The notes: generated by a model from the letters alone, not told the origin. Counted from the first letter of the stretch, positions 2,565 to 64,000 are shown. The stretch is DNA of 64,000 nt from an uncultured Candidatus Saccharibacteria bacterium (GCA_964429815.1 CAYSCM010000001.1:32001-96000), one strand, 5' to 3'. Made by a program: numbers and translations.

Positions 2565-4307
2565 ATGACTCTCGAGCTCAGGGACTTTGTCCCGAAGAAG
2601 GCCCTCGGGCTCCATCCCGCCGACGTTGTCGCTGGGATTCCCTGGGGAGGACTCTCCGGTATGCGGGTGTGTTTCATCAACATGCCACTGCGGGAGTCCG
2701 CGAAGCCAAATACCCCGCCGCAAGGTCCCGGCCTTATGGCGGCCCGTCTTATGCAGTATGGCGCTGACGTCTCGATTATCGACCTCAACGGCTACCGTAT
2801 CGATGACGAAGAAGCGCACAAGCGCGGACTCGTCAATGGCCGACACGTCTCCCACAATGAGGCGCGTCAGCTCATCGAGGCGACTTTCCACAAGTTCGGC
2901 GAACCGCACGTGATTGGCCTTTCGGGGAAAATCACGACGTTGCGCTGGCAGGAGTGGACCGCCAAGACGTGTCGTTCGCTCGCTCCAGAGGCGTTTCTCA
3001 TCTCCGGCGGTGGGCTCGCGACCGAGTTCAAAGAAGGACTCTTCAGCTGGGTGCCGCAGCTCGACGCGGTCGGCCACTCGGAAGGCGACGACATCATGGT
3101 CGCCTGCGTGAATGACGTTCGCAAGAGCGGAGGCAAGCGCGAGCGCATGACCGACTCGCCCTACTACGTGGGCGAAATCGGCGGACGCCACCGCTTCCTC
3201 TATGCGGGCGATCGACCAAGGGACCTCGATGCGCTACCGTTTGCTGCGCTCGAACTTCTCGAAGAAGACGTCTTTGGCAATCGCATACTCGACGAGTACA
3301 TCGCGACCCCCGTATGGGGACTCGCGGCGAACAACTCGTCGGCGGCACCTTTCGAGATGAGGAAGTCTCTCACGACCGTCTCCTCTCGCGGCTGTCCGTA
3401 TGCCTGCGCGTTCTGCTTCCGTGGAGCGCAAGGCGAGCAAAAGTGGGGGATCCGCTCCCCCGAGAACCTGCGAGCCGAAGCCGAGTGGATGATTCGGAAG
3501 TATGGCGTGGATTTCATCGGGTTTCCCGATGACAACTTTGCCGTAAGCGTCAAGCGCTGCCAATCGCTTCCGGAGGCCTTTGACGGGCTCTCGTTTCGTT
3601 GGGGCACGCATACGCGCCTTGACGAATGCACGCTCGATCGGATCGTGCCCATGGCGAAAGCTGGGTGCATCTATATCGGCGTCGGTGCCGAATCGGCCTC
3701 GAAACACACCCTCTACCGCATGAAAAAGGGCGGACACATCGTCCGCAAGGACGGCGTGGAGCGTCTCACGAAATGGAACGGGTTCGAATTTCCGACAACG
3801 ATGATCGAGGGGATTCGAAATTGCCGAGACGTGGGTATCCACGTGAACGCGACCTGGATCATGGGATACCCAGGGGAAACCTTGGAGGACCTCAAGACCT
3901 CGGTTGCTTTCATTTCCTGGCAACAGGAGCACTACACCAAGGGATTGGTGCCCGGCACGCCGGAGTATCAAAATGCCTCGGCGTCGGTGAATCGACGCAT
4001 GTTCACGGCGACGTGGTATCCGGGGACCACCATGGTGGAAGCCCCCGAAGCCACGAAACCGCGGGAGCTCCTCGGCGAGCACTTCGGGATTCGTTTCGTC
4101 GAGAAAGGAAGCGGGCATGCACACAAGTTCGTCCCCGTTCCCGACGACGCAATGAAAGCCTATGTGCTGGAACTCGATGACGCGACTAAGATCCTCCACG
4201 GATCCGACGGAGCGCCCATCAACTACTCGGACATGCCGGAGGAGGTCTTCCTCGAGGCCCGTAGTCACATCGATTCGGGTCAAACGGAAAAGATCCTGTC
4301 GATGTAA
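2565..4307 (+). CDS. B12-binding (class B) radical SAM enzyme, probable radical methyltransferase acting on a sugar
   Basis: N-terminal cobalamin-binding-like domain (MRVCFINMPL...ADVSIIDLNGYRI). CxxxCxxC cluster in SSRGCPYACAFCF. AGGAGG 6 nt upstream of the ATG. Confidence 0.75.
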   Translation: MTLELRDFVPKKALGLHPADVVAGIPWGGLSGMRVCFINMPLRESAKPNTPPQGPGLMAARLMQYGADVSIIDLNGYRIDDEEAHKRGLVNGRHVSHNEARQLIEATFHKFGEPHVIGLSGKITTLRWQEWTAKTCRSLAPEAFLISGGGLATEFKEGLFSWVPQLDAVGHSEGDDIMVACVNDVRKSGGKRERMTDSPYYVGEIGGRHRFLYAGDRPRDLDALPFAALELLEEDVFGNRILDEYIATPVWGLAANNSSAAPFEMRKSLTTVSSRGCPYACAFCFRGAQGEQKWGIRSPENLRAEAEWMIRKYGVDFIGFPDDNFAVSVKRCQSLPEAFDGLSFRWGTHTRLDECTLDRIVPMAKAGCIYIGVGAESASKHTLYRMKKGGHIVRKDGVERLTKWNGFEFPTTMIEGIRNCRDVGIHVNATWIMGYPGETLEDLKTSVAFISWQQEHYTKGLVPGTPEYQNASASVNRRMFTATWYPGTTMVEAPEATKPRELLGEHFGIRFVEKGSGHAHKFVPVPDDAMKAYVLELDDATKILHGSDGAPINYSDMPEEVFLEARSHIDSGQTEKILSM

Positions 4308-4324
4308 TCCAGTTCTCTCACTCA

Positions 4325-4358
4325 GGGACCGCAGCAATGCGGTCCTTTTTTATTTTTA
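4325..4358 (+). terminator. rho-independent terminator
   Basis: GGACCGCA-GCAA-TGCGGTCC hairpin followed by TTTTTTATTTTTA. Confidence 0.7.
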
Positions 4359-4431
4359 TGGTCGTTCGCATCCTCATCCTGACCAATCATCGTGCTTTTT
4401 GATGTGAGCGTGCTTTAGGTATAGTGGAGCG

Positions 4432-5394
4432 ATGAAGATAGTACGGTGGTCCATACCCAAGCACCTCGATCTGTCGATTGAGATTTCCGGTAGAGAACAT
4501 ATGGCACAGGGAGAAAAGATGGGGTCTACGAAAGCCTTGGATGTCCTGCGCGGAATAACCTTCAGCGGCTCAGCGCCGGCGATACAGTTTGCCGATGTCG
4601 AGTCTTTATTTTCCTTTGTAGAAAAAAAATTTTTACATAAGACATTTGCGGGAGTCGGCATCGAAGTCGGCGCGGGGCCGATGATATTTAGCTCGCTCCT
4701 TACGCGCTCACGACCAAACATTCAACAGATGTATGGAATCGAACTAAGTGGCGGTATCGTAGAATTCATTGCCCCGGGAGTGGTTGATGAATTGCTGGGA
4801 CCCAAGAGTGAAAAGGTAGTCGGGGTCATCGGCAGTTTCGACGCGATGGAGCTTACAAGCGAGAGTGTCGATTTTGTTCTTGATTTTATGTCGCTTCACC
4901 ATGCGACCGACCTCGGAGAGGCGTTCGCCGAATGCTACCGGGTGCTAAAACCAGGCGGCTTCGTTGTTCTTTTTGACAAGGCTCGCCCCGATTCCTTCAC
5001 CTCTCAAGACCTGGAGGGATTGCTCAATACCGAGTACAGCGATGAAGAGAAAAAACGCTTTGGGGTGCCTTCCGGCGAACACTTTACACGCCGGATGAAC
5101 GGGGAAAAAGAATACCGGCTTAAAGATTGGTCGGCGGGGGCCTTAGAGGCCGGTTTCCCGACCCTTATGCATTGGCGACTCGCGCGCACCAACGTGCCGG
5201 GTATCTCAGGATTGTACCGACGTTTGCTTTCTCATGTGCCGCTACGCACCCAGATGGCTACTACCGCTATTGCACAAAGCGTACTGGGCAGCGGCTCAAG
5301 AGTGAAGTTTTCACAAAAAAATTTGGTGTACTCGCGGTACGTGAACCCCTTCCCCCGCGAGATCTCGCTCATGATCGCGCACAAGGCTTACTAA
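4432..5394 (+). CDS. class I SAM-dependent methyltransferase
   Basis: GIEVGAGPM glycine-rich motif I and LKPGGFVVL motif. Start uncertain: ATG 4432 sits 7 nt after a TATAGT hexamer, and an internal ATG at 4519 follows GGGAGA. Confidence 0.6.
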   Translation: MKIVRWSIPKHLDLSIEISGREHMAQGEKMGSTKALDVLRGITFSGSAPAIQFADVESLFSFVEKKFLHKTFAGVGIEVGAGPMIFSSLLTRSRPNIQQMYGIELSGGIVEFIAPGVVDELLGPKSEKVVGVIGSFDAMELTSESVDFVLDFMSLHHATDLGEAFAECYRVLKPGGFVVLFDKARPDSFTSQDLEGLLNTEYSDEEKKRFGVPSGEHFTRRMNGEKEYRLKDWSAGALEAGFPTLMHWRLARTNVPGISGLYRRLLSHVPLRTQMATTAIAQSVLGSGSRVKFSQKNLVYSRYVNPFPREISLMIAHKAY

Positions 5395-6299
5395 CTTCTC
5401 CACGCGCTCAGGTCGCGCCCGGTAAATGCCTCGAGTTTTTGCAGTTCGGGTTCATAGCGAGCGCGGAGGGCTTCTTTGAGCTTCGGGTCGAGCGTCCCGT
5501 AGCTAGCTTCCCCGGTCCCCGCCCTCGTGTCGATGGAGCGCACTACTTTTTGGTGGAGCGGCGTTTTGCGGAAGAGGGAGAGGAGGGGCTCTCCGAATGG
5601 CAGGGCTTTGAGTAGCTTCCGCGCCCTGAGCGCGTGTCTGCGCAAGAGTGTCGCTCCGGCGGAATTTATGGTCGTGGCGAGCGAGGGCGGCACGAACGAG
5701 GCATCGACGCCGATGAAAGAAAAGATATCTCTCATATATTTTTTTGGGTCGGCACGCATATCGTCATAGAACGTAATGAGTATCTGGTCGCGGGAAAATA
5801 CCTTGAGATAATTTTCGAGGTGCTTCATATAGAAGCTCTCCTCGATAAACGACGGTTTAGTTTTAATAATTTCCTCAAGGGTTGGGAGCTCATGTGCGCC
5901 CTTTAGCTTCGTGTACATGTAGTGGGAAAAAAAGCGCTCCGTAGGGTTTCGCAATACCGCAATGATCTTCGCTTTAGGAAAATGTGTACGGAGGCGCTCC
6001 GGCACCTCGGGTGCGTGAATATAGATAGGAGTGACTTCTCCGTATACCCTCTTCCCTACACAGTGACCAAAATGTTCAAAATACCCTTCGAGAGCGCCGT
6101 TGTATTTTGTTTTCCCCACCAAATCAGTGCGCCAGAAACTTTGCGTCGTGTTAAAAAAGTTGAGCTCTTTGGGTTCGGAAACACAGACCTCGGGGTGCTC
6201 TTTGAGACATTGGTGGAGCCAGGTGGTGCCCGTCCGCTCCGGACCAATCACGAAGAAATCAATGGAAAAAGGCTTTGCTGTAGATGAAATGGTACTCAT
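5391..6299 (-). CDS. sulfotransferase family protein (PAPS-dependent)
   Basis: 5'-PSB-like motif FFVIGPERTGTTWLHQ and 3'-PB-like motif RNPTERFFSHY. Confidence 0.65.
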   Translation of the reverse strand: MSTISSTAKPFSIDFFVIGPERTGTTWLHQCLKEHPEVCVSEPKELNFFNTTQSFWRTDLVGKTKYNGALEGYFEHFGHCVGKRVYGEVTPIYIHAPEVPERLRTHFPKAKIIAVLRNPTERFFSHYMYTKLKGAHELPTLEEIIKTKPSFIEESFYMKHLENYLKVFSRDQILITFYDDMRADPKKYMRDIFSFIGVDASFVPPSLATTINSAGATLLRRHALRARKLLKALPFGEPLLSLFRKTPLHQKVVRSIDTRAGTGEASYGTLDPKLKEALRARYEPELQKLEAFTGRDLSAWRS

Positions 6300-24713: not shown

Positions 24714-24742
24714 TTGACTATTGCAGATAATCGTGCTACAAT
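24714..24742 (+). promoter_or_regulatory. sigma-70-type promoter TTGACT-N17-TACAAT
   Basis: Near-consensus hexamers with a 17-nt spacer, followed by GAGGAGG and an ATG at 24775. Confidence 0.5.
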
Positions 24743-24774: not shown

Positions 24775-25362
24775 ATGCCGAAGTTCTTTCCTGCCCGCCC
24801 CGACCCGGAGCCGCCGGTCTTTTTCGAAGGCGGCGATGGCGTCCGCAAGGGATGGAGCCGGCCGTTCCTTGATGACGCTGAATACCTCACTGCCCTCAAC
24901 AAGCTCCTGATCGTCTGTTCGGACGTCTTATGGGTGAGGCCGGAATCGCAAGAGCTCTGGCTCACCTGGCGCAAGGTGCACAGCACGAAAGGCCCGTGGA
25001 TGTTCGGCGGGCGTCAGCTGCGCGGGGAAACGCCGCGCGAAGCGGCCGTGAGGAAACTCTCACGGGAGGTCGGTACCGACGTCGGGCCGGATGAACTCTC
25101 GTACCTGGCGACGCTCGTGTGGCTCTCCGAATTTCGTCAACAAGAACCCCAGGGCGCCGGCTGCCATTTCATCCTGTTCCACTACTGCTGGCAGCCACAG
25201 GACGAGCTGGTCGCTTCGAAGCAGGCAAAGCTCGACCCGGCCGAGTACGATCTCGAGCACGGCATCAAAGCCTACGGCTTGGCCGACATCGAAGCGCTCG
25301 ACGGGAAACTCTGGCCGCAACGCCAGCTTCTCATCGATCACTGGCGTCGCTGCTTCGGCTAG
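24775..25362 (+). CDS. Nudix hydrolase, GDP-mannose mannosyl hydrolase-like
   Basis: Degenerate Nudix box GGRQLRGETPREAAVRKLSREVG. Sits in a gmd-containing locus like E. coli wcaH/gmm. The track ORF starts at TTG 24721, inside the promoter, so ATG 24775 is preferred. Confidence 0.6.
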   Translation: MPKFFPARPDPEPPVFFEGGDGVRKGWSRPFLDDAEYLTALNKLLIVCSDVLWVRPESQELWLTWRKVHSTKGPWMFGGRQLRGETPREAAVRKLSREVGTDVGPDELSYLATLVWLSEFRQQEPQGAGCHFILFHYCWQPQDELVASKQAKLDPAEYDLEHGIKAYGLADIEALDGKLWPQRQLLIDHWRRCFG

Positions 25363-25393
25363 TAGACGTCCGCTCTCGTTCTTAACACTTTCG

Positions 25394-25423
25394 GCCGCAC
25401 CCACAGGGTGCGGCTGATTTTTC
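25394..25423 (+). terminator. rho-independent terminator (copy 1 of a repeated hairpin)
   Basis: GCCGCACCC-ACA-GGGTGCGGC followed by TGATTTTTC. Confidence 0.65.
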
Positions 25424-25452
25424 TTGACTATTTAAAATAGTGTGATATTATC
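25424..25452 (+). promoter_or_regulatory. sigma-70-type promoter TTGACT-N17-TATTAT
   Basis: Directly abuts the upstream terminator. Followed by AGGAGAGGA and an ATG at 25483. Confidence 0.5.
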
Positions 25453-25482
25453 TTCCTAGACTAGAAATTTCAGGAGAGGAAC

Positions 25483-25977
25483 ATGAGCGTGGATAGACTA
25501 CTAATCTCCAAAGAAACAAAAACCCATGAATGGTATCTTCAAAAAAAAGCCCGCGCCGCAGGCGAAACGGGCTATGATCTCTTCTTCAGCAGACTGCAGC
25601 CGTCGGACTTCAGTTTTGTCCTAGAGAAAGAGGCGGGCCGAGTCCTAATTGTAGGGACGAATTCTCAAATTCGCAATTTTTTTGCGGACCAAGAAAAAAT
25701 CCTTCGCGAGGTCTGCACAAGACGTGCCATAGCAAATCCGACGTTCATGGCCGCTGCCTCAACCAACTGGTTCTGGCAAAAATTCTTCAACTATGGAAAT
25801 TTTTTGGACAACCATCCCGAGGGAGCGACCCTTCCCGCGTTGGTTATTGCCTCGGGCGACATCCGCCACTACGACGACTGGGGTCGCGGCACCACTATCG
25901 ACAAGATCGATACGTGGCTCTCTGGCCATTGCGAGCGCTTCGGTGTACCGATTGAGTACATCAAAAGCGCCAATTAA
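25483..25977 (+). CDS. hypothetical protein (164 aa), stand-alone transcription unit
   Basis: Has its own strong promoter and RBS, and is bracketed by two near-identical terminator hairpins. No recognisable domain. Confidence 0.55.
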   Translation: MSVDRLLISKETKTHEWYLQKKARAAGETGYDLFFSRLQPSDFSFVLEKEAGRVLIVGTNSQIRNFFADQEKILREVCTRRAIANPTFMAAASTNWFWQKFFNYGNFLDNHPEGATLPALVIASGDIRHYDDWGRGTTIDKIDTWLSGHCERFGVPIEYIKSAN

Positions 25978-25986
25978 TTAAGACTT

Positions 25987-26019
25987 CGGCCGCACCCATA
26001 GGGTGCGGCCGATTTTTAC
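25987..26019. terminator. bidirectional rho-independent terminator (copy 2 of the repeated hairpin)
   Basis: CGGCCGCACCC-ATA-GGGTGCGGCCG followed by ATTTTTAC. Lies between convergent genes. Confidence 0.65.
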
Positions 26020-26996
26020 TTTCCGGGATTTTTTTCGTACCAGGCGATTGTTTTTTTGAGGCCATCTCGTAGTGCCGTCACCGCTTCCCAGCCGGTATCG
26101 CGTTTTATTTTTGAGACGTCCGGAACACGTCGCTTCACGCTTCCCGTGGGACCTGGTTTGCGTTCAATAACGTTCGGCCTCCATCCGGCACGTTCGAACA
26201 AGACTTCGACGAGTTCCCCGATGTTAGTCTCGACGCTCGTACCGATATGATACGTCTCCCCGTCCGTTTTAGAACTTTCCATTACCGCCTGCATCGCCTC
26301 GACCGCATCATCAATGTAGCAAAATGAGCGCGTCTCATCGGCGCCGTAGAGGGCGAACGGATCTTCGCGTCGCTCGATGCGCCCCAACACATCGGGAATC
26401 ACGTGGTGGCCGGAGCGGGGTCCGTAGAAATTATGGGGGCGTACAACGACCGTGCGAAGTCCATACTGTTTTGCATAACTGTTGAAGAGTAGTTCTCCTA
26501 TCAACTTAGTACCGGCATACGACCACCGGGGATTACGAGGGTCAGCGATGACAAGCGGGACATTTTCAAGCGTAGGCAGCGGCAAGATGCCGAAGGCTTC
26601 AAGGGCACCGGCATATGCCTCGTTCGACGAGGTAAAAAGTATTTTTGACCCCTTCTTGTTCTTCTTAAACCACTCGAGCGCATGGACATTAAGAAGAAGG
26701 GCGGAGCGGAGAATTTCCGCAGGTATCTCATAAAAAAGCTTGGTCGAGTTAATGGCGGCTAGATGGTAGACGTCGTCAAAATCGAAGCCGAGCTTCTCCC
26801 AAGCTCTTGCTTGCGTGAGGTCGCACTGTAGGAACACAACTCCCCTCTCCTTAGTGAGAGCCCGGAACTCTTCGTCATGCTGCCCGAGCGCAAAGTTATC
26901 TACCAGGGTGAGCTCGTACCCAGCACCCTGTAATCGCTTAGCTAGGTGGTAGCCGACAAATCCTGCTGCCCCGGTTATCAAAACTCTTTTTGCCAT
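26016..26996 (-). CDS. NAD-dependent NDP-sugar epimerase/dehydratase
   Basis: VLITGAAGFVGYHL Rossmann motif and YAGTK catalytic motif. ATG 26996 chosen. The track ORF extends to 27080. Confidence 0.6.
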   Translation of the reverse strand: MAKRVLITGAAGFVGYHLAKRLQGAGYELTLVDNFALGQHDEEFRALTKERGVVFLQCDLTQARAWEKLGFDFDDVYHLAAINSTKLFYEIPAEILRSALLLNVHALEWFKKNKKGSKILFTSSNEAYAGALEAFGILPLPTLENVPLVIADPRNPRWSYAGTKLIGELLFNSYAKQYGLRTVVVRPHNFYGPRSGHHVIPDVLGRIERREDPFALYGADETRSFCYIDDAVEAMQAVMESSKTDGETYHIGTSVETNIGELVEVLFERAGWRPNVIERKPGPTGSVKRRVPDVSKIKRDTGWEAVTALRDGLKKTIAWYEKNPGK

Positions 26997-27907
26997 GATA
27001 GTCTTCGCTTTATCGCGATCCGAAGAGCCTTGAGCGCTTCCCGACCGGAAACGATCGGCCTTGGCCACTCCGAGAACCATTCAGGAAGGATAGGGAACCG
27101 CTTCTCCGCTCTGAGTTGCACGTTATTTGCCTTGATGGCTCCGCCGAGAAGTTCCATGCTCTTCCCCGCTCGGCCGTGCGCATAGAAAAAGGCGCGCATA
27201 TCTTTCGGCAGACAATGCCCGCCGAAGGCTTTGCCATAGCGGAGGTACGGCTTTCGTTCGAACAAAAAATTGACGACGTTCTCTATTTTGGAGAGCTCCT
27301 TTTGGCTGGTCGGGGTTCCCATCGCGTTACCGAATTCATTCACGAATGCGATACGCATGGCATTCCAGACATTCGACAAATATTTTATGTACGATGCTTC
27401 TTCGGGGGTGCCTGCGAAAGATTTCACCGAACGTTTACGCCACTCATCGAGAAAGCTCGGTTTCTTTTTCCCGGTGCGTGCGCCAACGACGAAGTAGTAC
27501 GGATTGAGGCATTCCTCTACCGCCTTCTTTTCGTGCAAAAATTCAGGAACATAGAAATCAAATGCGAGTTTATCCAGTGATTGTGGTATGACGGTAGAGC
27601 GTAGTATGACCGTCCCCTTCGCTCCCTTCAGGGTCTCAAGGGCTTTTTCTATCGGGGAAACATCCTGAATGCCTTCTTCGGATACGCGATCGCCCACACA
27701 GACCACGTACACGGTGTTCGGGCCATCGTGTTCACGTGCGTGCGAGAGAGAAGCGATTTCCGAGCATTCTTTCTGATATTTTGGGACGTATTTGAGCGAA
27801 GTCTCTGCCACGTCATAGCAAAAAACCGGATATCTCATGATCCGCAGCGAGATGGCATTTGCTTGGCCGACCCAACCGTATCCAACGATGACAATCGTCT
27901 CCTTCAT
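26978..27907 (-). CDS. UDP-glucose/GDP-mannose dehydrogenase-family protein, short (lacks the usual C-terminal domain)
   Basis: N-terminal IVGYGWVGQ NAD-binding motif. Catalytic-cysteine region GGHCLPKD. Only 309 aa. Overlaps the downstream epimerase start by 19 nt. Confidence 0.55.
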   Translation of the reverse strand: MKETIVIVGYGWVGQANAISLRIMRYPVFCYDVAETSLKYVPKYQKECSEIASLSHAREHDGPNTVYVVCVGDRVSEEGIQDVSPIEKALETLKGAKGTVILRSTVIPQSLDKLAFDFYVPEFLHEKKAVEECLNPYYFVVGARTGKKKPSFLDEWRKRSVKSFAGTPEEASYIKYLSNVWNAMRIAFVNEFGNAMGTPTSQKELSKIENVVNFLFERKPYLRYGKAFGGHCLPKDMRAFFYAHGRAGKSMELLGGAIKANNVQLRAEKRFPILPEWFSEWPRPIVSGREALKALRIAIKRRLSWQKEF

Positions 27908-31246: not shown

Positions 31247-32251
31247 TTATTCCCTCCTCTGAGCCGCCTCTACCATTTCTTCGACTAGTTCCTTGAAGGA
31301 AATCTTTGGCTCCCATTCGAGCTCCTCAGCAATTTTTGCGTTGTCTCCACGGCGCGGATACATTTCCGCAGGGCGATAGAACTCGCTCGCCACGCGCACA
31401 CGCACAGTACCGGACGGGTCCACTCCGACCTCATATTGCCCTTCCGCTTTCCACGCGATATCCATACCAAGACGTTTCGCAGCTATTTCGATAAACTCCC
31501 GTACGGTATGGGCCCTGCCAGAGGCTATGACGTAGGACTCCGCCCTATCGTGCTGCAGGGTCTTCCAAACGGCTTGGACGACGTCTCTGGCGTGTGACCA
31601 ATCGCGCCTCACATCGAGATTCCCTATCCGCAACTCCTGCTCTTTCCCCAGAGAAATGCGCGCGAGCGTCGTCGCTATTTTTTGGGTCACGAATTCCCTT
31701 CCACGACGAGGACTCTCGTGATTAAAAAGAATTCCAGACACGGAAAAAATATGGTGGTCACGCCGATATGCCTCGATAAGGTTATGCGCAGCTGTTTTTC
31801 CGACGCCGTAGGGGTTGCAGGGCCGAAAGGGCGTATTCTCATTTTGCGGGCTTTCTGACGCTTCGCCGTACATTTCTGCCGATGATGCTTGGAACAGTCT
31901 CGATCCAGGCAAAAATTCTCGCATCGCCTCGAGGATAGTGAGGGGAACGAACGCAGTGCTCTCAAGGGTTTTGCGCGGGTTCTCCCAGGGGTTTGCCACC
32001 GTGCTCACCGAGGCAAGATTATATATTTCATCGGGACAGACGACTTTGAGCTGTTCGCGTAAAAAGTGAGAGTCGGTCACATCCCCTGCGGAGAGCGCGA
32101 CCCCGGTAACGTCTTTAAGATTTTCCTTCGTCGAACCTGCGCGTTCAATGCCGAACACCCGATATCCCTTTTGAAGCAAAAGTTCGGCCAAGTAGGAACC
32201 GTCTTGGCCGCCGATCCCCGTGATAAGGGCTGTTGTTGCCTTCTCTCTCAT
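31247..32251 (-). CDS. gmd: GDP-mannose 4,6-dehydratase
   Basis: LITGIGGQDGSYLAELLL, YGVGK and GILFNHESPRRG are hallmark Gmd motifs. Confidence 0.8.
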   Translation of the reverse strand: MREKATTALITGIGGQDGSYLAELLLQKGYRVFGIERAGSTKENLKDVTGVALSAGDVTDSHFLREQLKVVCPDEIYNLASVSTVANPWENPRKTLESTAFVPLTILEAMREFLPGSRLFQASSAEMYGEASESPQNENTPFRPCNPYGVGKTAAHNLIEAYRRDHHIFSVSGILFNHESPRRGREFVTQKIATTLARISLGKEQELRIGNLDVRRDWSHARDVVQAVWKTLQHDRAESYVIASGRAHTVREFIEIAAKRLGMDIAWKAEGQYEVGVDPSGTVRVRVASEFYRPAEMYPRRGDNAKIAEELEWEPKISFKELVEEMVEAAQRRE

Positions 32252-33283
32252 CTATTCATCTCCCCCCTTCTTATGGCCCGCGATAAGTCGTAGGTCCGAT
32301 TCAACCATCATCTCTACGAGATCTTGAAACGATACCTTCGGCTTCCACCCCAATTCCCGCAGGGCTTTGGTGGAATCGCCCTCAAGAGCCTCAACCTCCT
32401 GTGGTCGGAAGAAGCGCGAATTGACTTCGATGATACATTTTCCGTGCTGATCGTATCCCTTTTCTTCGAGTCCCTTCCCCCTCCACGTAATGTCGATCCC
32501 AAGCGCATGACACACCGCTGCGACAAGATCTCTCACGGTGTGGGACTTTCCTGTGGCGATAACATAATTCGAGGGTCGCGCAGGCTGGAGCATCATCCAC
32601 ATCGCCTCGACGTAATCTCCCGCAAAGCCCCAATCGCGTTTGGCCCCAAGGTTCCCTAGCCTTACTTTTTCCTGAAGTCCAAGTTTGATTTTCACCAATG
32701 AGTGGGTAAGTTTGCGTGTCACGAAGTGCTTGCCGCGGCGAGGACTTTCATGGTTGAACAATATTCCGGAGACAGCGTACTTACCTTCTTTTTGCCAGGC
32801 ACTCACAAGCTCATGTGAATGCAGTTTCGAGACCGCATACGGGCTTACTGGCTGAAATGGGCTCGCCTCGCTCTGCGGTGGCGGGGTGCTGCCGAACATT
32901 TCGCTAGTCGAAGCCTGATACACTTTCACTTTCGGGTTGCGACGGAATGCTTCAGTGCCAAGGCGTTCGAGGCCTTTGAAGTTTATATCGTCGGTCTCAT
33001 CGGGACAGAGAAACGAAACACCGACATGCGATTGTGCCGCAAGATTGTAGATCTCATCAGGTTTGGCTTCCTCAAGCGCTCGCACGATGGTCGGCATGTC
33101 GCGCATATTCCCATACATGAGATCGATCTCACCCTTGATATAGAGATCCTCTATCCGCACGAAAGGGTCCGTGCTGGTGCGGCGCATAAATCCGAATACT
33201 CGGTACCCTTTTCGTATCAGAAGCTCAGCCAGGTAGGAACCGTCCTGCCCCGTGATGCCTGTTATAAGAGCCCGTTTTTGCAT
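32252..33283 (-). CDS. gmd: GDP-mannose 4,6-dehydratase paralogue (tandem second copy)
   Basis: LITGITGQDGSYLAELLI, YAVSK and GILFNHESPRRG. Shares many residues with the neighbouring copy. Confidence 0.75.
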   Translation of the reverse strand: MQKRALITGITGQDGSYLAELLIRKGYRVFGFMRRTSTDPFVRIEDLYIKGEIDLMYGNMRDMPTIVRALEEAKPDEIYNLAAQSHVGVSFLCPDETDDINFKGLERLGTEAFRRNPKVKVYQASTSEMFGSTPPPQSEASPFQPVSPYAVSKLHSHELVSAWQKEGKYAVSGILFNHESPRRGKHFVTRKLTHSLVKIKLGLQEKVRLGNLGAKRDWGFAGDYVEAMWMMLQPARPSNYVIATGKSHTVRDLVAAVCHALGIDITWRGKGLEEKGYDQHGKCIIEVNSRFFRPQEVEALEGDSTKALRELGWKPKVSFQDLVEMMVESDLRLIAGHKKGGDE

Positions 33284-48308: not shown

Positions 48309-48392
48309 GGTGGGCGAGGGGAGAGTTGAACTCCCAATCCTTGCGGAATACGCTTCTGAGGCGTACGTGTATACCAATTCCACCACTCGCCC
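48309..48392 (-). tRNA. tRNA-Leu (anticodon CAG), class II with long variable arm
   Basis: Minus-strand read GGGCGAG...TACGC-CTCAGAA-GCGTA...GGGAGTTCAACTCTCCC-CTCGCCC-ACC. Good acceptor, anticodon and T arms. Confidence 0.75.
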
Positions 48393-48544
48393 GTCTGTTC
48401 CATCCTACTCAAATATGAAAACGGGTCTAGCCGACATCAGACCGCGTGGGTCTCATTTAAAGGCGCCATCAATCCGATTTAAGCCTTCGACACACTGTTC
48501 TGTCAGCCGACTGGCGAGGGGCGGAAAAGCTGTACCGTCCTGTG

Positions 48545-48616
48545 TGCGAGTGGAAGGAATCGAACCTTCGACCTCTGTCTTATCAGGACAGCGTTCTACC
48601 ACTGAACTACACTCGC
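48545..48616 (-). tRNA. tRNA-Ile (anticodon GAU)
   Basis: Minus-strand read GCGAGTG-TA-GTTCAGTGGTAGAAC-G-CTGTC-CTGATAA-GACAG-...GAAGGTTCGATTCCTTC-CACTCGC-A. CCA not encoded. Confidence 0.75.
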
Positions 48617-50388: not shown

Positions 50389-50528
50389 TATACCAGTACG
50401 CATTTCTGGAAAGCGAGCAGACTTTAAAGACATACTGCTATGGTCTACTTCCGTACTCGATCGAGATACAGAATATCGACCGGATAAGTCTTACCTTCCG
50501 AAGAAGGAGACAGTTCCGATTGGAATTA

Positions 50529-51973
<1,445 letters not shown>

Positions 51974-51986
51974 AGCTAAGAATTCG

Positions 51987-60730: not shown

Positions 60731-60840
60731 TAACCTGGCGGCTACCTACTCTCCCCTTGCGAGTACCTAGCGGCGTAGCGGGCTGAAAGCGAGGGTTCGC
60801 AGCTTTCAGAGCCGCAGGCCTGTTCGAGGCCGAGGCGGGG
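60731..60840 (-). pseudogene. divergent 5S rRNA-like copy (possible 5S paralogue or pseudogene)
   Basis: The first 37 nt (60731..60767) are identical to the 3' part of the true 5S (60914..60950). The next ~30 nt (TAGCGGCGTAGCGGGCTGAAAGCGAGGGTTCG) still parallel the true 5S interior (ATCGGCGCTAGCGGGCTTAACGGCCGTGTTCG), and the last ~40 nt diverge without a convincing helix-I partner. Confidence 0.4.
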
Positions 60841-60875: not shown

Positions 60876-60914
60876 TAACGGCATGTCCCGTCCAAAATGT
60901 TAGTTAGAAACTAT

Positions 60915-61022
60915 AACCTGGCGGCTACCTACTCTCCCCTTGCGAGTACCATCGGCGCTAGCGGGCTTAACGGCCGTGTTCGGAATGAGAACGGGTGTTT
61001 CCCCGCCGCCAAACCACCAGAT
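60915..61022 (-). rRNA. rrf: 5S ribosomal RNA
   Basis: Minus-strand read UCUGGUGGUUUGGCGGCGGGGAAACACCCGUUCUCAUUCCGAACACGGCCGUUAAGCCCGCUAGCGCCGAUGGUACUCGCAAGGGGAGAGUAGGUAGCCGCCAGGU. Helix I and loop C/E conserved. Flanked by the inverted repeat CCGTCCAAAATGT / ACATTTTGGACGG, which forms a processing stem. Confidence 0.85.
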
Positions 61023-61074
61023 TATAAATTCCAACTATTTTCGATCTCTAAGTGTGACATTTTGGACGGATTCT

Positions 61075-61119
61075 CGGAATGAGAACGGGTGTTTCCCCGC
61101 CGCCAAACCACCAGATTAT
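61075..61119 (-). repeat. 45-nt duplicate of the 5S rRNA 5' portion
   Basis: Identical to 60981..61025. Confidence 0.6.
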
Positions 61120-61459
61120 GAGATTCAAAAAGTCGGGTTCGGCAGCCGACTTCCTCGATAGGATGAGGAAGATCGGCTGCCGCCCGCGCAAGGACGTGAG
61201 CAGTTGAGCGGGGCGCTCCTCCCGAGCGGCCACCATTCCCATCGCAGTGCTAAAGCGCTTCTTAGAATGGTCGCGGAGGGCGACACCATTCCAGCTCCGC
61301 AAAGGGTCCGTGCACGCTTCTTTCCCACGTCCGAAAAGCGAAAACAAAGAACTTAACGTTTCGAAGCGTCCGAAATCCGGGTAGATTTCGGCCACCAGTA
61401 AAACGTCAAGCGGGTTAAAAAAGTAACGAAAATCATATTCAATCAATTGCGACATGCAG

Positions 61460-64000
<2,541 letters not shown>

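What the first reader, a model, noticed from the sequence alone, without database searches (positions are those of the whole stretch)
25394..26019. Single hypothetical gene with strong promoter, bracketed by two near-identical terminator hairpins, inserted in the middle of the glycan locus
The hairpins GCCGCACCCACAGGGTGCGGC (25394..25414) and CGGCCGCACCCATAGGGTGCGGCCG (25987..26011) are almost the same sequence. Between them sit a TTGACT-17-TATTAT promoter, an AGGAGAGGA RBS and a 164-aa ORF with no recognisable domain. This looks like an insulated, probably highly expressed, single-gene cassette that splits the two halves of the locus. The duplicated hairpin suggests either a genome-wide REP-like terminator element or acquisition as a cassette.
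Basis: seen in the sequence. Interest (0 to 1): 0.55.

Follow-up and report, generated by a model that had tools for sequence, protein, structure and literature searches.

The report
Stand-alone gene inserted at duplicated terminator
A small self-contained gene (own promoter, own ribosome site) has been dropped exactly onto the transcription terminator between two converging sugar-pathway genes, copying that terminator to both sides; the gene is real and belongs to a rare uncharacterised protein family, but what it does is still unknown.

Summary
Two 12-bp-stem, 3-nt-loop, U-tailed hairpins bracket a promoter, a ribosome-binding site and a 164-aa ORF. The repeat is longer than reported: 44 nt (25382-25425 vs 25978-26021, 40 of 45 aligned columns identical). 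It occurs nowhere else in the 64-kb window. About ten other strong terminators there are unrelated, so a REP-like family is not supported locally. The bare 21-nt core is a generic GC stem found in more than 119 unrelated genomes.

A distant relative (L124) has the orthologous NUDIX, epimerase and dehydrogenase genes in the same order without the ORF. The 552-nt unit (25426-25977) is therefore best read as an insertion at a bidirectional terminator that duplicated about 44 nt of target.

The ORF is a real gene. Its codon usage is native, and 23 distant homologues exist, all unnamed. AlphaFold with their alignment gives pLDDT 91 for a generic Rossmann/flavodoxin-like fold with no specific structural match.

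Homologues are stand-alone genes, most examined with a near-consensus promoter, in varied contexts. Four of 12 contexts are envelope or sugar loci. One homologue (L131) sits at a different position in the same module. One (L132) is also bracketed by a duplicated terminator (31 of 33 nt).

Verdict: a moron-like chromosomal cassette of moderate interest. Protein function and insertion mechanism remain open.

The parts
24775..25362 (+). NUDIX hydrolase gene (195 aa; the longest ORF starts at 24721). It is the upstream neighbour, has its own promoter TTGACT-17-TACAAT at 24714-24742, and is part of the conserved sugar module.
   Evidence: Pfam PF00293, E 1e-9. Promoter scan. Homologues of 44-48% identity; in L124 the homologue (48%) lies next to orthologues of the window's epimerase and dehydrogenase.
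25382..25425 (+). Direct-repeat copy 1 (44 nt), containing terminator hairpin 1 (stem 25391-25417, loop ACA, one G.U pair, then TTTTT). It terminates NUDIX and insulates the cassette promoter. Its last two T's form the start of the -35 hexamer.
25424..25451 (+). Sigma-70-type promoter: TTGACT, 16-nt spacer, TGaTATTAT (extended -10). The 13-nt palindrome CTATTTAAAATAG (25428-25440) spans the last two bases of the -35 hexamer and the spacer.
   Evidence: 10 of 12 matches, TG present; sequence.
25426..25977 (+). Unique inserted segment between the two repeat copies (552 nt): most of the promoter, a 5'UTR of about 25 nt, the SD AGGAG (25472-25476) and the ORF through its stop codon, with no spare 3' sequence.
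   Evidence: Boundaries from the alignment; length. The segment is absent from the orthologous module in L124.
25483..25977 (+). 164-aa ORF: a soluble 18.8-kDa protein of an uncharacterised family. Family motifs are RVLVxGT, FWxxFFG..FLD, LPALIxxTGxMRNY and GGET..V..RL.EIA..W.IPI; the window copy is a divergent member (IRHY, RGTT).
   Evidence: Native codon usage: log-likelihood ratio 0.19 in frame versus -0.40 and -0.38 out of frame, with window genes at 0.24+-0.06. 23 homologues at E 3e-9 to 7e-4. Alignment A1. AF2 pLDDT 91.2, pTM 0.86. No TM segment, pI 6.9.
25978..26021 (+). Direct-repeat copy 2 (44 nt), containing terminator hairpin 2 (stem 25986-26012, perfect 12 bp, loop ATA, then TTTTT). 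It terminates the ORF and, read on the - strand, lies 3 nt after the epimerase stop codon (26016-26018). It is the presumed original bidirectional terminator.
   Evidence: (-27.4 kcal/mol on +, -26.4 on -).
26016..26996 (-). SDR epimerase/dehydratase gene (326 aa), convergent with the ORF. It is the last gene of a minus-strand operon that continues with the UDPG_MGDP_dh-like gene at 26978-27907.
   Evidence: Pfam PF01370 and PF16363. 56% identity to the L124 orthologue and 74% to the L131 orthologue.

Best explanation
**Ancestral state (inferred).** The NUDIX gene (+) and the epimerase/dehydrogenase operon (-) converged on one compact bidirectional intrinsic terminator, in an intergenic region of about 57 nt.

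**Insertion (inferred).** A 552-nt autonomous expression unit was inserted at that terminator. The unit consists of a near-consensus sigma-70 promoter, a short 5'UTR with a strong SD, and a 164-aa ORF ending at its stop codon. About 44 nt of target, the whole hairpin plus its T-tract, was duplicated onto both sides.

**How it would work now (inferred from the anatomy).**
- Copy 1 stops NUDIX transcripts just before the new promoter. Its C-to-T change leaves a G.U pair, so the stem stays intact on the + strand only.
- Copy 2 stops the new gene and still serves the convergent epimerase operon.
- The gene would therefore be expressed independently of the surrounding glycan genes, as a phage 'moron' is.

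**The product.** It is a genuine soluble protein with a Rossmann/flavodoxin-like alpha/beta core. It belongs to a sparse, fast-diverging family seen so far almost only in uncultivated bacteria; one member is annotated Candidatus Saccharibacteria. Family members are typically stand-alone genes, most examined with a near-consensus promoter, in varied neighbourhoods. They recur in nucleotide-sugar and cell-wall loci. My best guess is an accessory, non-essential cytoplasmic factor linked to envelope-sugar metabolism.

**Shown versus inferred.**
- Shown: the anatomy, the repeat, the real gene family, the fold confidence, and the absence of the gene from an orthologous module.
- Inferred: the direction of the event (insertion), duplication at the moment of insertion, terminator and promoter function, and any biochemical role.
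For: - **Repeat.** It is 44 nt, 40 of 45 aligned columns identical, and extends beyond the hairpin on both sides. These are the only two copies in 64 kb. Other terminators in the window are unrelated.
- **Empty site.** Removing one copy plus the insert reconstructs a compact convergent terminator site.
- **Synteny.** L124 has NUDIX(+), epimerase(-) and dehydrogenase(-) at 48, 56 and 56% identity, adjacent, with a single terminator region and no ORF.
- **Different position in a closer relative.** In L131 (epimerase 74%, dehydrogenase 54% identical) a family member lies between the dehydrogenase and the epimerase. This points to independent placement of the unit.
- **Second bracketed example.** In L132 a homologue (28% identity by BLASTP) is bracketed by a 33-nt duplicated terminator, 31 of 33 nt identical, with an unrelated hairpin sequence.
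- **Background rate.** About 0.3% of 655 control genes have such flanking repeats.
- **Real gene.** Codon statistics, 23 homologues, conserved motifs, AF2 pLDDT 91.
- **Expression signals.**
- **Family promoters.** A near-consensus TTGAC[AT] -35 with a -10-like hexamer 16-17 nt downstream is present in W, L130, L131, L132, L140 and L141; it is weaker or not evident in L127, L128, L133, L135 and L136.
Against: - **Distant comparator.** The nearest genome lacking the ORF is only 48-56% identical, so loss in that lineage cannot be excluded.
- **No known mechanism.** I know of no described mechanism that gives a 33-45-nt target duplication spanning a terminator. No terminal inverted repeats and no recombinase were found.
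- **No foreign signature.** The ORF's GC (50.6%) and codon usage are native, so there is no compositional sign of recent horizontal transfer.
- **Age.** The two repeat copies differ at 5 of 45 columns, so the event is not very recent.
- **Weak statistics.** The window was chosen for this feature. The chance that at least one of about 9 other lineages shows a flanking duplication is roughly 3-9%.
- **Incomplete genome.** The rest of the genome could not be scanned for more copies.
Confidence: 0.6

Rival explanations
1. The hairpin belongs to a dispersed, REP-like family of near-identical terminators in this genome. The ORF was placed between two such copies, or moved there by homologous recombination between copies: a circle carrying one copy integrates at another. 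On this reading the flanking repeat is not a target duplication.
For: - Some genomes do carry families of similar intergenic palindromes flanking genes. Examples seen here are the Hymenobacter locus L028 and the PaaX_M gene in L127.
- The 21-nt core recurs as a terminator stem in many bacteria.
- The native composition of the ORF fits an intragenomic origin.
Against: - There is no third copy in 64 kb even at 3 mismatches.
- About 10 other strong terminators in the window are unrelated.
- The similarity includes non-hairpin flanks specific to this site, which overlap the epimerase stop codon.
- The core's occurrences elsewhere have different flanks and are about as frequent as expected for a GC-rich palindrome in high-GC genomes.
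Confidence: 0.15
2. The promoter+ORF unit is itself a minimal mobile element. Its protein is a new kind of structure-specific integrase that targets intrinsic-terminator hairpins and cuts on both sides of the stem, so that repair duplicates the whole terminator. This would be analogous to repeat duplication by Cas1-Cas2.
For: - Two unrelated lineages (W and L132) show a family member bracketed by a duplicated local terminator with different hairpin sequences.
- Two related lineages carry family members at different positions in the same module.
- The family has variable contexts and always occurs as a compact unit.
- The N-terminal TxLWxW helix weakly resembles an HTH recognition helix (E 0.57).
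Against: - The gene is single-copy in this genome: the only hit below E 1e-10 is the protein itself.
- There are no terminal inverted repeats.
- No invariant acidic or nucleophilic catalytic constellation is present; the invariant residues are F97, P118 and R128, besides M1.
- 8 of 10 testable lineages show no flanking duplication.
- The statistical support is weak.
Confidence: 0.08
3. The ORF is an old resident of the module that was lost in the L124 lineage. The terminator was duplicated secondarily, for example by a small tandem duplication or slippage, and retained because it insulates the ORF promoter from NUDIX read-through.
For: - Native codon usage and GC.
- A homologue is also linked to the same module in L131.
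- The repeat copies have diverged at 5 of 45 columns.
Against: - It needs two events, and a copy of the terminator placed 596 nt away rather than in tandem.
- The family gene is at a different position in L131, and its protein is only 27% identical, against 54-74% for the flanking genes.
- The insert ends exactly at the stop codon and starts within the -35 hexamer, which looks like a junction.
Confidence: 0.12
4. The ORF is spurious. The region would then be a non-coding spacer or small-RNA locus between two terminators.
For: - No curated family matches.
- The word-indexed search found only the protein itself.
Against: - The exhaustive HMMER search found 23 homologues with shared motifs.
- Codon usage is frame-specific.
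- AF2 gives pLDDT 91 with the family alignment.
- A strong SD sits at the correct spacing.
- No Rfam family reaches threshold.
Confidence: 0.02

Closest known systems
Phage 'morons' (autonomous extra genes in prophages; definition in PMC3714127)
   Same: - A single gene with a sigma-70-type promoter on one side and a factor-independent terminator on the other.
- It interrupts a region that is contiguous in relatives.
- It is expressed independently of its neighbours.
   Different: - It lies in a chromosomal nucleotide-sugar locus, not a prophage.
- There is no PHROG match, and the one viral-contig scan, with a family motif that the window protein itself lacks, found no relative.
- There is no deviant GC.
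- It is bracketed by a duplicated copy of the host terminator, which is not part of the moron definition.
REP/BIME-type dispersed extragenic palindromes and uptake-sequence terminators (own knowledge)
   Same: A GC-rich palindrome in extragenic position, doubling as a terminator, present in more than one near-identical copy.
   Different: - Only two copies occur in 64 kb, and they are adjacent.
- The other terminators are unrelated.
- The arm 9-mer is not over-represented.
Integron gene cassettes / attC clusters (CALIN) (own knowledge)
   Same: A short single-ORF unit of about 600 nt of unknown function, bounded by similar palindromic sites.
   Different: - The hairpins are perfect 12-bp stems with U-tracts, that is, intrinsic terminators.
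- There are no RYYYAAC / GTTRRRY core sites and no extrahelical bases (sequence).
- The cassette has its own promoter.
- Only one cassette is present.
- No integrase gene was looked for or seen in the ten neighbouring genes that were scanned.
IS200/IS605 elements and REP-associated tyrosine transposases (RAYTs) (own knowledge)
   Same: A unit of about 600-700 nt with one ORF of about 150-190 aa, flanked by hairpins.
   Different: - There is no Y1/HUH transposase domain (Pfam).
- There is no HUH motif in the sequence.
- The hairpins are direct, not inverted, copies, and include the host gene's stop codon.
Target-repeat duplication by Cas1-Cas2 or casposases (own knowledge)
   Same: Insertion accompanied by duplication of a long target segment (tens of nt), often palindromic.
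   Different: No cas genes, CRISPR array or Cas1-like fold are present. This is an analogy for how a staggered cut around a hairpin could duplicate it, not a homology claim.

Membership tests
Intrinsic (factor-independent) terminator | GC-rich stem-loop immediately followed by a U-tract on the transcribed strand | tested here: met
   Both copies have a 12-bp stem, a 3-nt loop and TTTTT. Fold energies are -24.2 and -27.4 kcal/mol, z-scores -8.0 and -6.5.
Intrinsic (factor-independent) terminator | Actually stops transcription in vivo | not testable with these tools
   No transcriptome or Term-seq data are available.
Moron (phage autonomous gene unit) | Sigma-70-like promoter on one side and a factor-independent terminator on the other | tested here: met
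   definition from PMC3714127.
Moron (phage autonomous gene unit) | Interrupts a region that is contiguous in related genomes | tested here: met
   L124 has NUDIX -> <- epimerase <- dehydrogenase adjacent. The relative is distant, at 48-56% identity.
Moron (phage autonomous gene unit) | Resides in a phage or prophage genome | tested here: not met
   The neighbours are glycan-biosynthesis genes. There is no PHROG hit, and the one viral-contig scan, with a family motif, found no relative.
Moron (phage autonomous gene unit) | G+C content different from its surroundings (frequent, not obligatory) | tested here: not met
   ORF GC is 50.6% against 50-57% for the window's genes, and codon usage is native.
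REP/BIME-like dispersed palindrome | Many near-identical copies dispersed through the genome | tested here: inconclusive
   There is no third copy in the 64-kb window.
Integron cassette / attC | attC site with R''/L''/L'/R' boxes (RYYYAAC ... GTTRRRY) and extrahelical bases | tested here: not met
   Inspection of both repeats: perfect stems and no core sites.
Integron cassette / attC | Integron integrase (intI) and attI nearby | not tested
   Only the ten genes at 21.7-31.2 kb were scanned against Pfam. None is a recombinase.
IS200/IS605 or RAYT | Y1 HUH transposase (PF01797) encoded between the hairpins | tested here: not met
   No Pfam hit at E<=0.01, and no HUH motif in the translation.
Uncharacterised alpha/beta family defined here (alignment A1) | Significant sequence similarity over most of the length, with shared motifs | tested here: met
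   phmmer E-values of 3e-9 to 7e-4 to 23 representatives. Invariant F97, P118 and R128. Several family motifs are degenerate in the window copy (MRNY->IRHY, GGET->RGTT).
CheY-like receiver / Rossmann-like domains (best fold matches) | Specific structural match with the family's catalytic or phospho-acceptor residues | tested here: not met

The most novel reading that the evidence does not exclude
The 164-aa protein family marks a previously undescribed kind of minimal mobile gene unit (promoter + one ORF, about 550-730 nt). It would land on intrinsic-terminator hairpins and duplicate the entire terminator (33-45 nt), so every insertion arrives pre-insulated. The encoded alpha/beta protein, which has no specific structural relative, would be the structure-specific integrase, or would recruit one.
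Probability: 0.08. Interest if true: 0.85.

Novelty: new variant of a known kind. Interest (0 to 1): 0.45.

Why it matters
- **How genes enter operon-dense loci.** If the reading is right, a terminator at a convergent junction can act as a safe landing pad, and duplicating it insulates the newcomer on both sides at once. That is a natural version of the insulated expression cassette used in synthetic biology.
- **A family worth naming.** It puts a rare, unnamed protein family with a confidently predicted fold on the map. The family recurs next to nucleotide-sugar and cell-wall genes in poorly known, probably candidate-phylum bacteria, where accessory envelope functions are largely unexplored.
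- **A testable question.** A second, independent terminator-bracketed homologue raises the question of whether terminator duplication is a mechanistic signature rather than an accident.

Tried and rejected
- **Genome-wide scan with the 21-nt core.** It returned more than 119 hits in unrelated, mostly high-GC genomes with different flanks. This is a generic stem and says nothing about this genome.
- **Word-indexed protein search.** It found only the protein itself. Only the exhaustive HMMER search found relatives. A profile search through the word index recovered just 3 proteins.
- **Single-sequence AlphaFold.** pLDDT was 46.6, so the model was useless. It was replaced by the alignment-based model.
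- **Fold and profile searches.** They gave only generic alpha/beta matches. The afdb50 library was unavailable.
- **L129's 54-nt, 100% identical flanking repeat.** I first took this as strong support. It follows an N10 scaffold gap and is an assembly artefact. The gap-free L132 shows the real 33-nt repeat with 31 of 33 nt identical.
- **The 16-nt exact repeat in L130.** It is a repeated ribosome-site leader before two downstream small ORFs, not a flanking duplication.
- **Shared 5'UTR motif between W and L131, TAG.CTA.AAATTTCAG.** It is not significant after multiple comparisons.
- **Antisense hairpin+T8 inside the ORF (25549-25563, - strand).** The fold is not better than shuffles, z -1.4.
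- **Rfam.** No RNA family reaches threshold in the region.
- **Organism identity.** It could not be established. 16S probe-site checks show only a highly divergent lineage.

Full report
**1. The observation**

The hairpin pattern GCCGCACCC-N3-GGGTGCGGC matches only at 25394-25414 and 25989-26009 at up to 2 mismatches. None is expected in 100 dinucleotide shuffles.

The full stems are 25391-25417 and 25986-26012. Each has 12 pairs and a 3-nt loop and is followed by TTTTT. As RNA on the + strand they fold at -24.2 and -27.4 kcal/mol, with z-scores of -8.0 and -6.5. The terminator scan ranks them as the two best sites in 20-32 kb.

- The promoter is TTGACT (25424-25429), a 16-nt spacer (not 17), then TATTAT (25446-25451) preceded by TGn. 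It scores 10 of 12.
- AGGAG lies 6 nt before the ATG at 25483.
- The ORF is 25483-25977, 164 aa.
- Two independent Logan assemblies are 100% identical to the window across the region, so the repeat is not an assembly artefact.

**2. The repeat is a local 44-nt duplication, not a visible dispersed element**

Alignment of the two sites extends the similarity beyond the stems. The segments are 25382-25425 (TTAACACTTTCGG...GATTTTT-CTT) and 25978-26021 (TTAAGAC-TTCGG...GATTTTTACTT), with 40 identical columns of 45. The flank-to-flank score is 59, against a shuffle maximum of 32.

Nothing else in the 64-kb window resembles it, even at 3 mismatches on a 14-base core. A home-made terminator scan finds about ten other strong hairpin+T-tract sites in the window, all with unrelated sequences. 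The 9-mer arm is not over-represented.

The core is therefore a generic GC-rich terminator stem, and that scan says nothing about this genome. The rest of the source genome could not be reached, so a dispersed family is unlikely but not excluded.

**3. The cassette is an insertion into a conserved three-gene module**

The neighbours were identified with Pfam:
- a GT4 glycosyltransferase on the - strand;
- a NUDIX hydrolase (+, 24775-25362) with its own promoter;
- the ORF (+);
- then, converging on the - strand, an SDR epimerase/dehydratase (26016-26996) and a UDPG_MGDP_dh-like gene (26978-27907).

NUDIX homologues are at most 48% identical, so the organism has no close sequenced relatives.

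In L124 the NUDIX (48%), epimerase (56%) and dehydrogenase (56%) orthologues lie in the same order and orientation. Only a 94-nt terminator-containing spacer separates NUDIX from the epimerase. Deleting one repeat copy plus the 552-nt unique segment (25426-25977) from the window restores just such a compact site. In it, the hairpin lies 3 nt from the epimerase stop codon.

The unique segment begins inside the -35 hexamer and ends exactly at the ORF's stop codon. It is a bare promoter+UTR+ORF unit that relies on the duplicated host terminator. The differences inside the hairpin are one loop base and one C-to-T change that keeps a G.U pair on the + strand. Copy 1 is weaker on the - strand (-20.2 against -26.4 kcal/mol). 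This fits copy 1 now serving only the + strand and copy 2 remaining bidirectional.

**4. The ORF is a real gene of an uncharacterised family**

- **Codon usage.** It is native and frame-specific: 0.19 bits per codon in frame against -0.40 and -0.38 out of frame. The window's genes average 0.24+-0.06. GC is 50.6%.
- **Curated libraries.** They give nothing, and the word-indexed search found only the protein itself.
- **Exhaustive search.** HMMER against 1.84 billion representatives found 23 relatives at E 3e-9 to 7e-4, with 26-45% identity over matched stretches and lengths of 148-458 aa, plus one 2,022-aa protein matched only over a short stretch; 21 of them (148-236 aa) were aligned in A1.
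- **Shared motifs.** RVLVxGT, FWxxFFG..FLD, LPALIxxTGxMRNY and GGET..V..RL.EIA..W.IPI. Apart from the start methionine, F97, P118 and R128 are invariant.
- **Annotation.** No member matches Pfam or NCBIfam. Sources call them 'hypothetical protein'. One is from Candidatus Saccharibacteria.
- **Structure.** With this alignment AlphaFold gives pLDDT 91.2 and pTM 0.86. The single sequence gave 46.6.
- **Properties.** The protein is soluble, 18.8 kDa, pI 6.9, with no paralogue in the window.

No biochemical function can be assigned.

**5. What the homologues' loci show**

Thirteen loci were examined: the window and L127-L141 (L129 and L132 are one lineage).

Members are compact stand-alone genes. 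A near-consensus TTGAC[AT] -35 with a -10-like hexamer 16-17 nt downstream, plus a strong SD, is present in W, L130, L131, L132, L140 and L141; it is weaker or not evident in L127, L128, L133, L135 and L136. Neighbourhoods vary:

| Locus | Neighbourhood of the family gene |
|---|---|
| L127 | DHFR / ThyA |
| L130 | gyrase / GDPD |
| L132 | IF3 and small ORFs |
| L136 | PIN |
| L135 | SMC_N |
| L133 | Fic |
| L141 | Mur ligase / FemAB |
| L140 | a different sugar locus with epimerases and a NUDIX |

In L131 the family gene (only 27% identical to the window's) lies between orthologues of the window's own dehydrogenase (54%) and epimerase (74%), on the opposite strand. There it splits a pair that is tightly coupled in the window and in L124.

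So four of 12 contexts are envelope or sugar loci. Two related lineages carry divergent members at different positions in the same module. This argues for repeated placement, or relocation, of the unit together with some functional tie to such loci.

**6. A second terminator-bracketed member**

In L132 (gap-free; same species as L129) the family gene is preceded by CCGACGACTCTCCCGAGCCGCCGGTTTTTTTAT (1387-1419). It is followed by CCGGCGACTCTCGCGAGCCGCCGGTTTTTTTAT (2151-2183). The two are identical at 31 of 33 positions. The score is 56, against a shuffle maximum of 29. As in the window, the downstream copy is the better hairpin, at -17.2 against -8.4 kcal/mol. The hairpin sequence is unrelated to the window's.

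L129's 54-nt perfect copy after an N10 gap is an assembly artefact.

In a control of 655 genes from all DNA fetched, only the window ORF and two genes in a Hymenobacter repeat array reach score 50, a rate of about 0.3%. Eight other family lineages show no flanking repeat. The window was selected for this feature, so the chance of seeing it again in about nine lineages is roughly 3-9%. That is suggestive, not proof.

**7. Interpretation**

The best-supported reading (about 0.6) is a moron-like autonomous gene unit inserted at a bidirectional terminator, with duplication of about 44 nt of target. It meets the architectural criteria for morons given in PMC3714127 but fails two others:
- it is not in a phage;
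- it has no deviant composition.

It therefore works like a moron without being one.

The rivals are:
- a dispersed REP-like terminator family (0.15);
- an old resident gene with a secondary terminator duplication (0.12);
- a self-mobilising terminator-targeting element (0.08);
- a spurious ORF (0.02).

Integron attC and IS200/RAYT readings fail on defining features.

No known mechanism that I can name produces 33-45-nt target duplications spanning a hairpin. Repeat duplication by Cas1-Cas2 is only an analogy.

**8. Verdict**

This is a new variant of a known kind: an insulated single-gene insertion. Interest is moderate, at 0.45. It rests on the clean terminator duplication, the recurrence of the architecture in a distant homologue, and an unnamed protein family with a confident fold tied loosely to envelope-sugar loci in very poorly known bacteria.

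Noticed in passing
window 50519-51980 (16S, -), 60916-61021 (5S, -), 61464-64000 (23S, -), tRNA-Ile 48544-48616 and tRNA-Leu 48309-48392: The rRNA genes are unlinked: about 9 kb of protein-coding genes separate 23S-5S from 16S. The 16S has non-canonical 'universal' sites. The 515F site reads GTGCCAGCAGAAGCGGTAA, the 338 site ACATCTACGGATGGCTGC, and the 907 site ..GGAATAGACGG. This points to a very divergent, possibly candidate-phylum (CPR-like) organism that standard primers would miss.
   Followed up: partly
window 60731-60799 vs 60914-60982; 60980-61034 vs 61074-61128: Partial duplications of the 5S rRNA gene (81% and 93% identical) flank the intact 5S. This is another case of short local duplication in this genome.
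   Followed up: no
window 24775-25362: The NUDIX gene is compositionally odd: GC 63% and GC3 78%, against about 52% and 60% for the surrounding genes. Its homologue in L122 is likewise 62% in a 46% locus, but the one in L124 is not (47% against 45%).
   Followed up: partly
window 25428-25440: The 13-nt palindrome CTATTTAAAATAG spans the last two bases of the -35 hexamer and the spacer of the cassette promoter, and could be an operator. AT-rich palindromes also sit in the promoter spacers of the homologues in L132 (AAAACAaatcTGTTTT) and L141 (CTTTTAAAAG).
   Followed up: no
window 25549-25563 (- strand): A hairpin plus T8 lies antisense inside the 5' part of the ORF. It could catch read-through from the convergent epimerase operon. 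Its fold is not better than shuffles (z -1.4), so it may be chance.
   Followed up: yes
L131 617-1269: In a relative (epimerase 74% identical) the family gene, with its promoter and a strong bidirectional hairpin, sits between the dehydrogenase and epimerase genes on the opposite strand. It breaks a gene pair that overlaps or abuts in the window and in L124.
   Followed up: partly
L127 3801-4388 and flanks: An unrelated gene (PaaX_M domain) is flanked by two similar palindromic terminator-like sequences (CAAAC.AAAA..GGCCGATCGGCC..TTTT.G.TTGT). Terminator-like repeats flanking single genes therefore occur elsewhere too.
   Followed up: no
L028 about 3380-5810 (Hymenobacter glacialis): Copies of a dispersed intergenic element of about 95 nt lie between successive genes. 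These were the only control genes with strong flanking repeats.
   Followed up: no
L129 3015-3078: The public scaffold has an N10 gap followed by a 54-nt exact copy of upstream sequence. Comparison with L132 shows this is a mis-filled repeat, not the true downstream sequence.
   Followed up: yes
L130 2783-2798 and 3227-3242: An exact 16-nt leader GGCCGAGAAAGGACTG precedes each of two small ORFs (130 aa and about 62 aa) that follow the family gene in a Saccharibacteria genome. So the family gene is not always monocistronic.
   Followed up: no
window 31247-32251 and 32252-33283: Two tandem paralogous SDR epimerase genes; an 80-nt stretch is 74% identical (repeat finder family D1).
   Followed up: no
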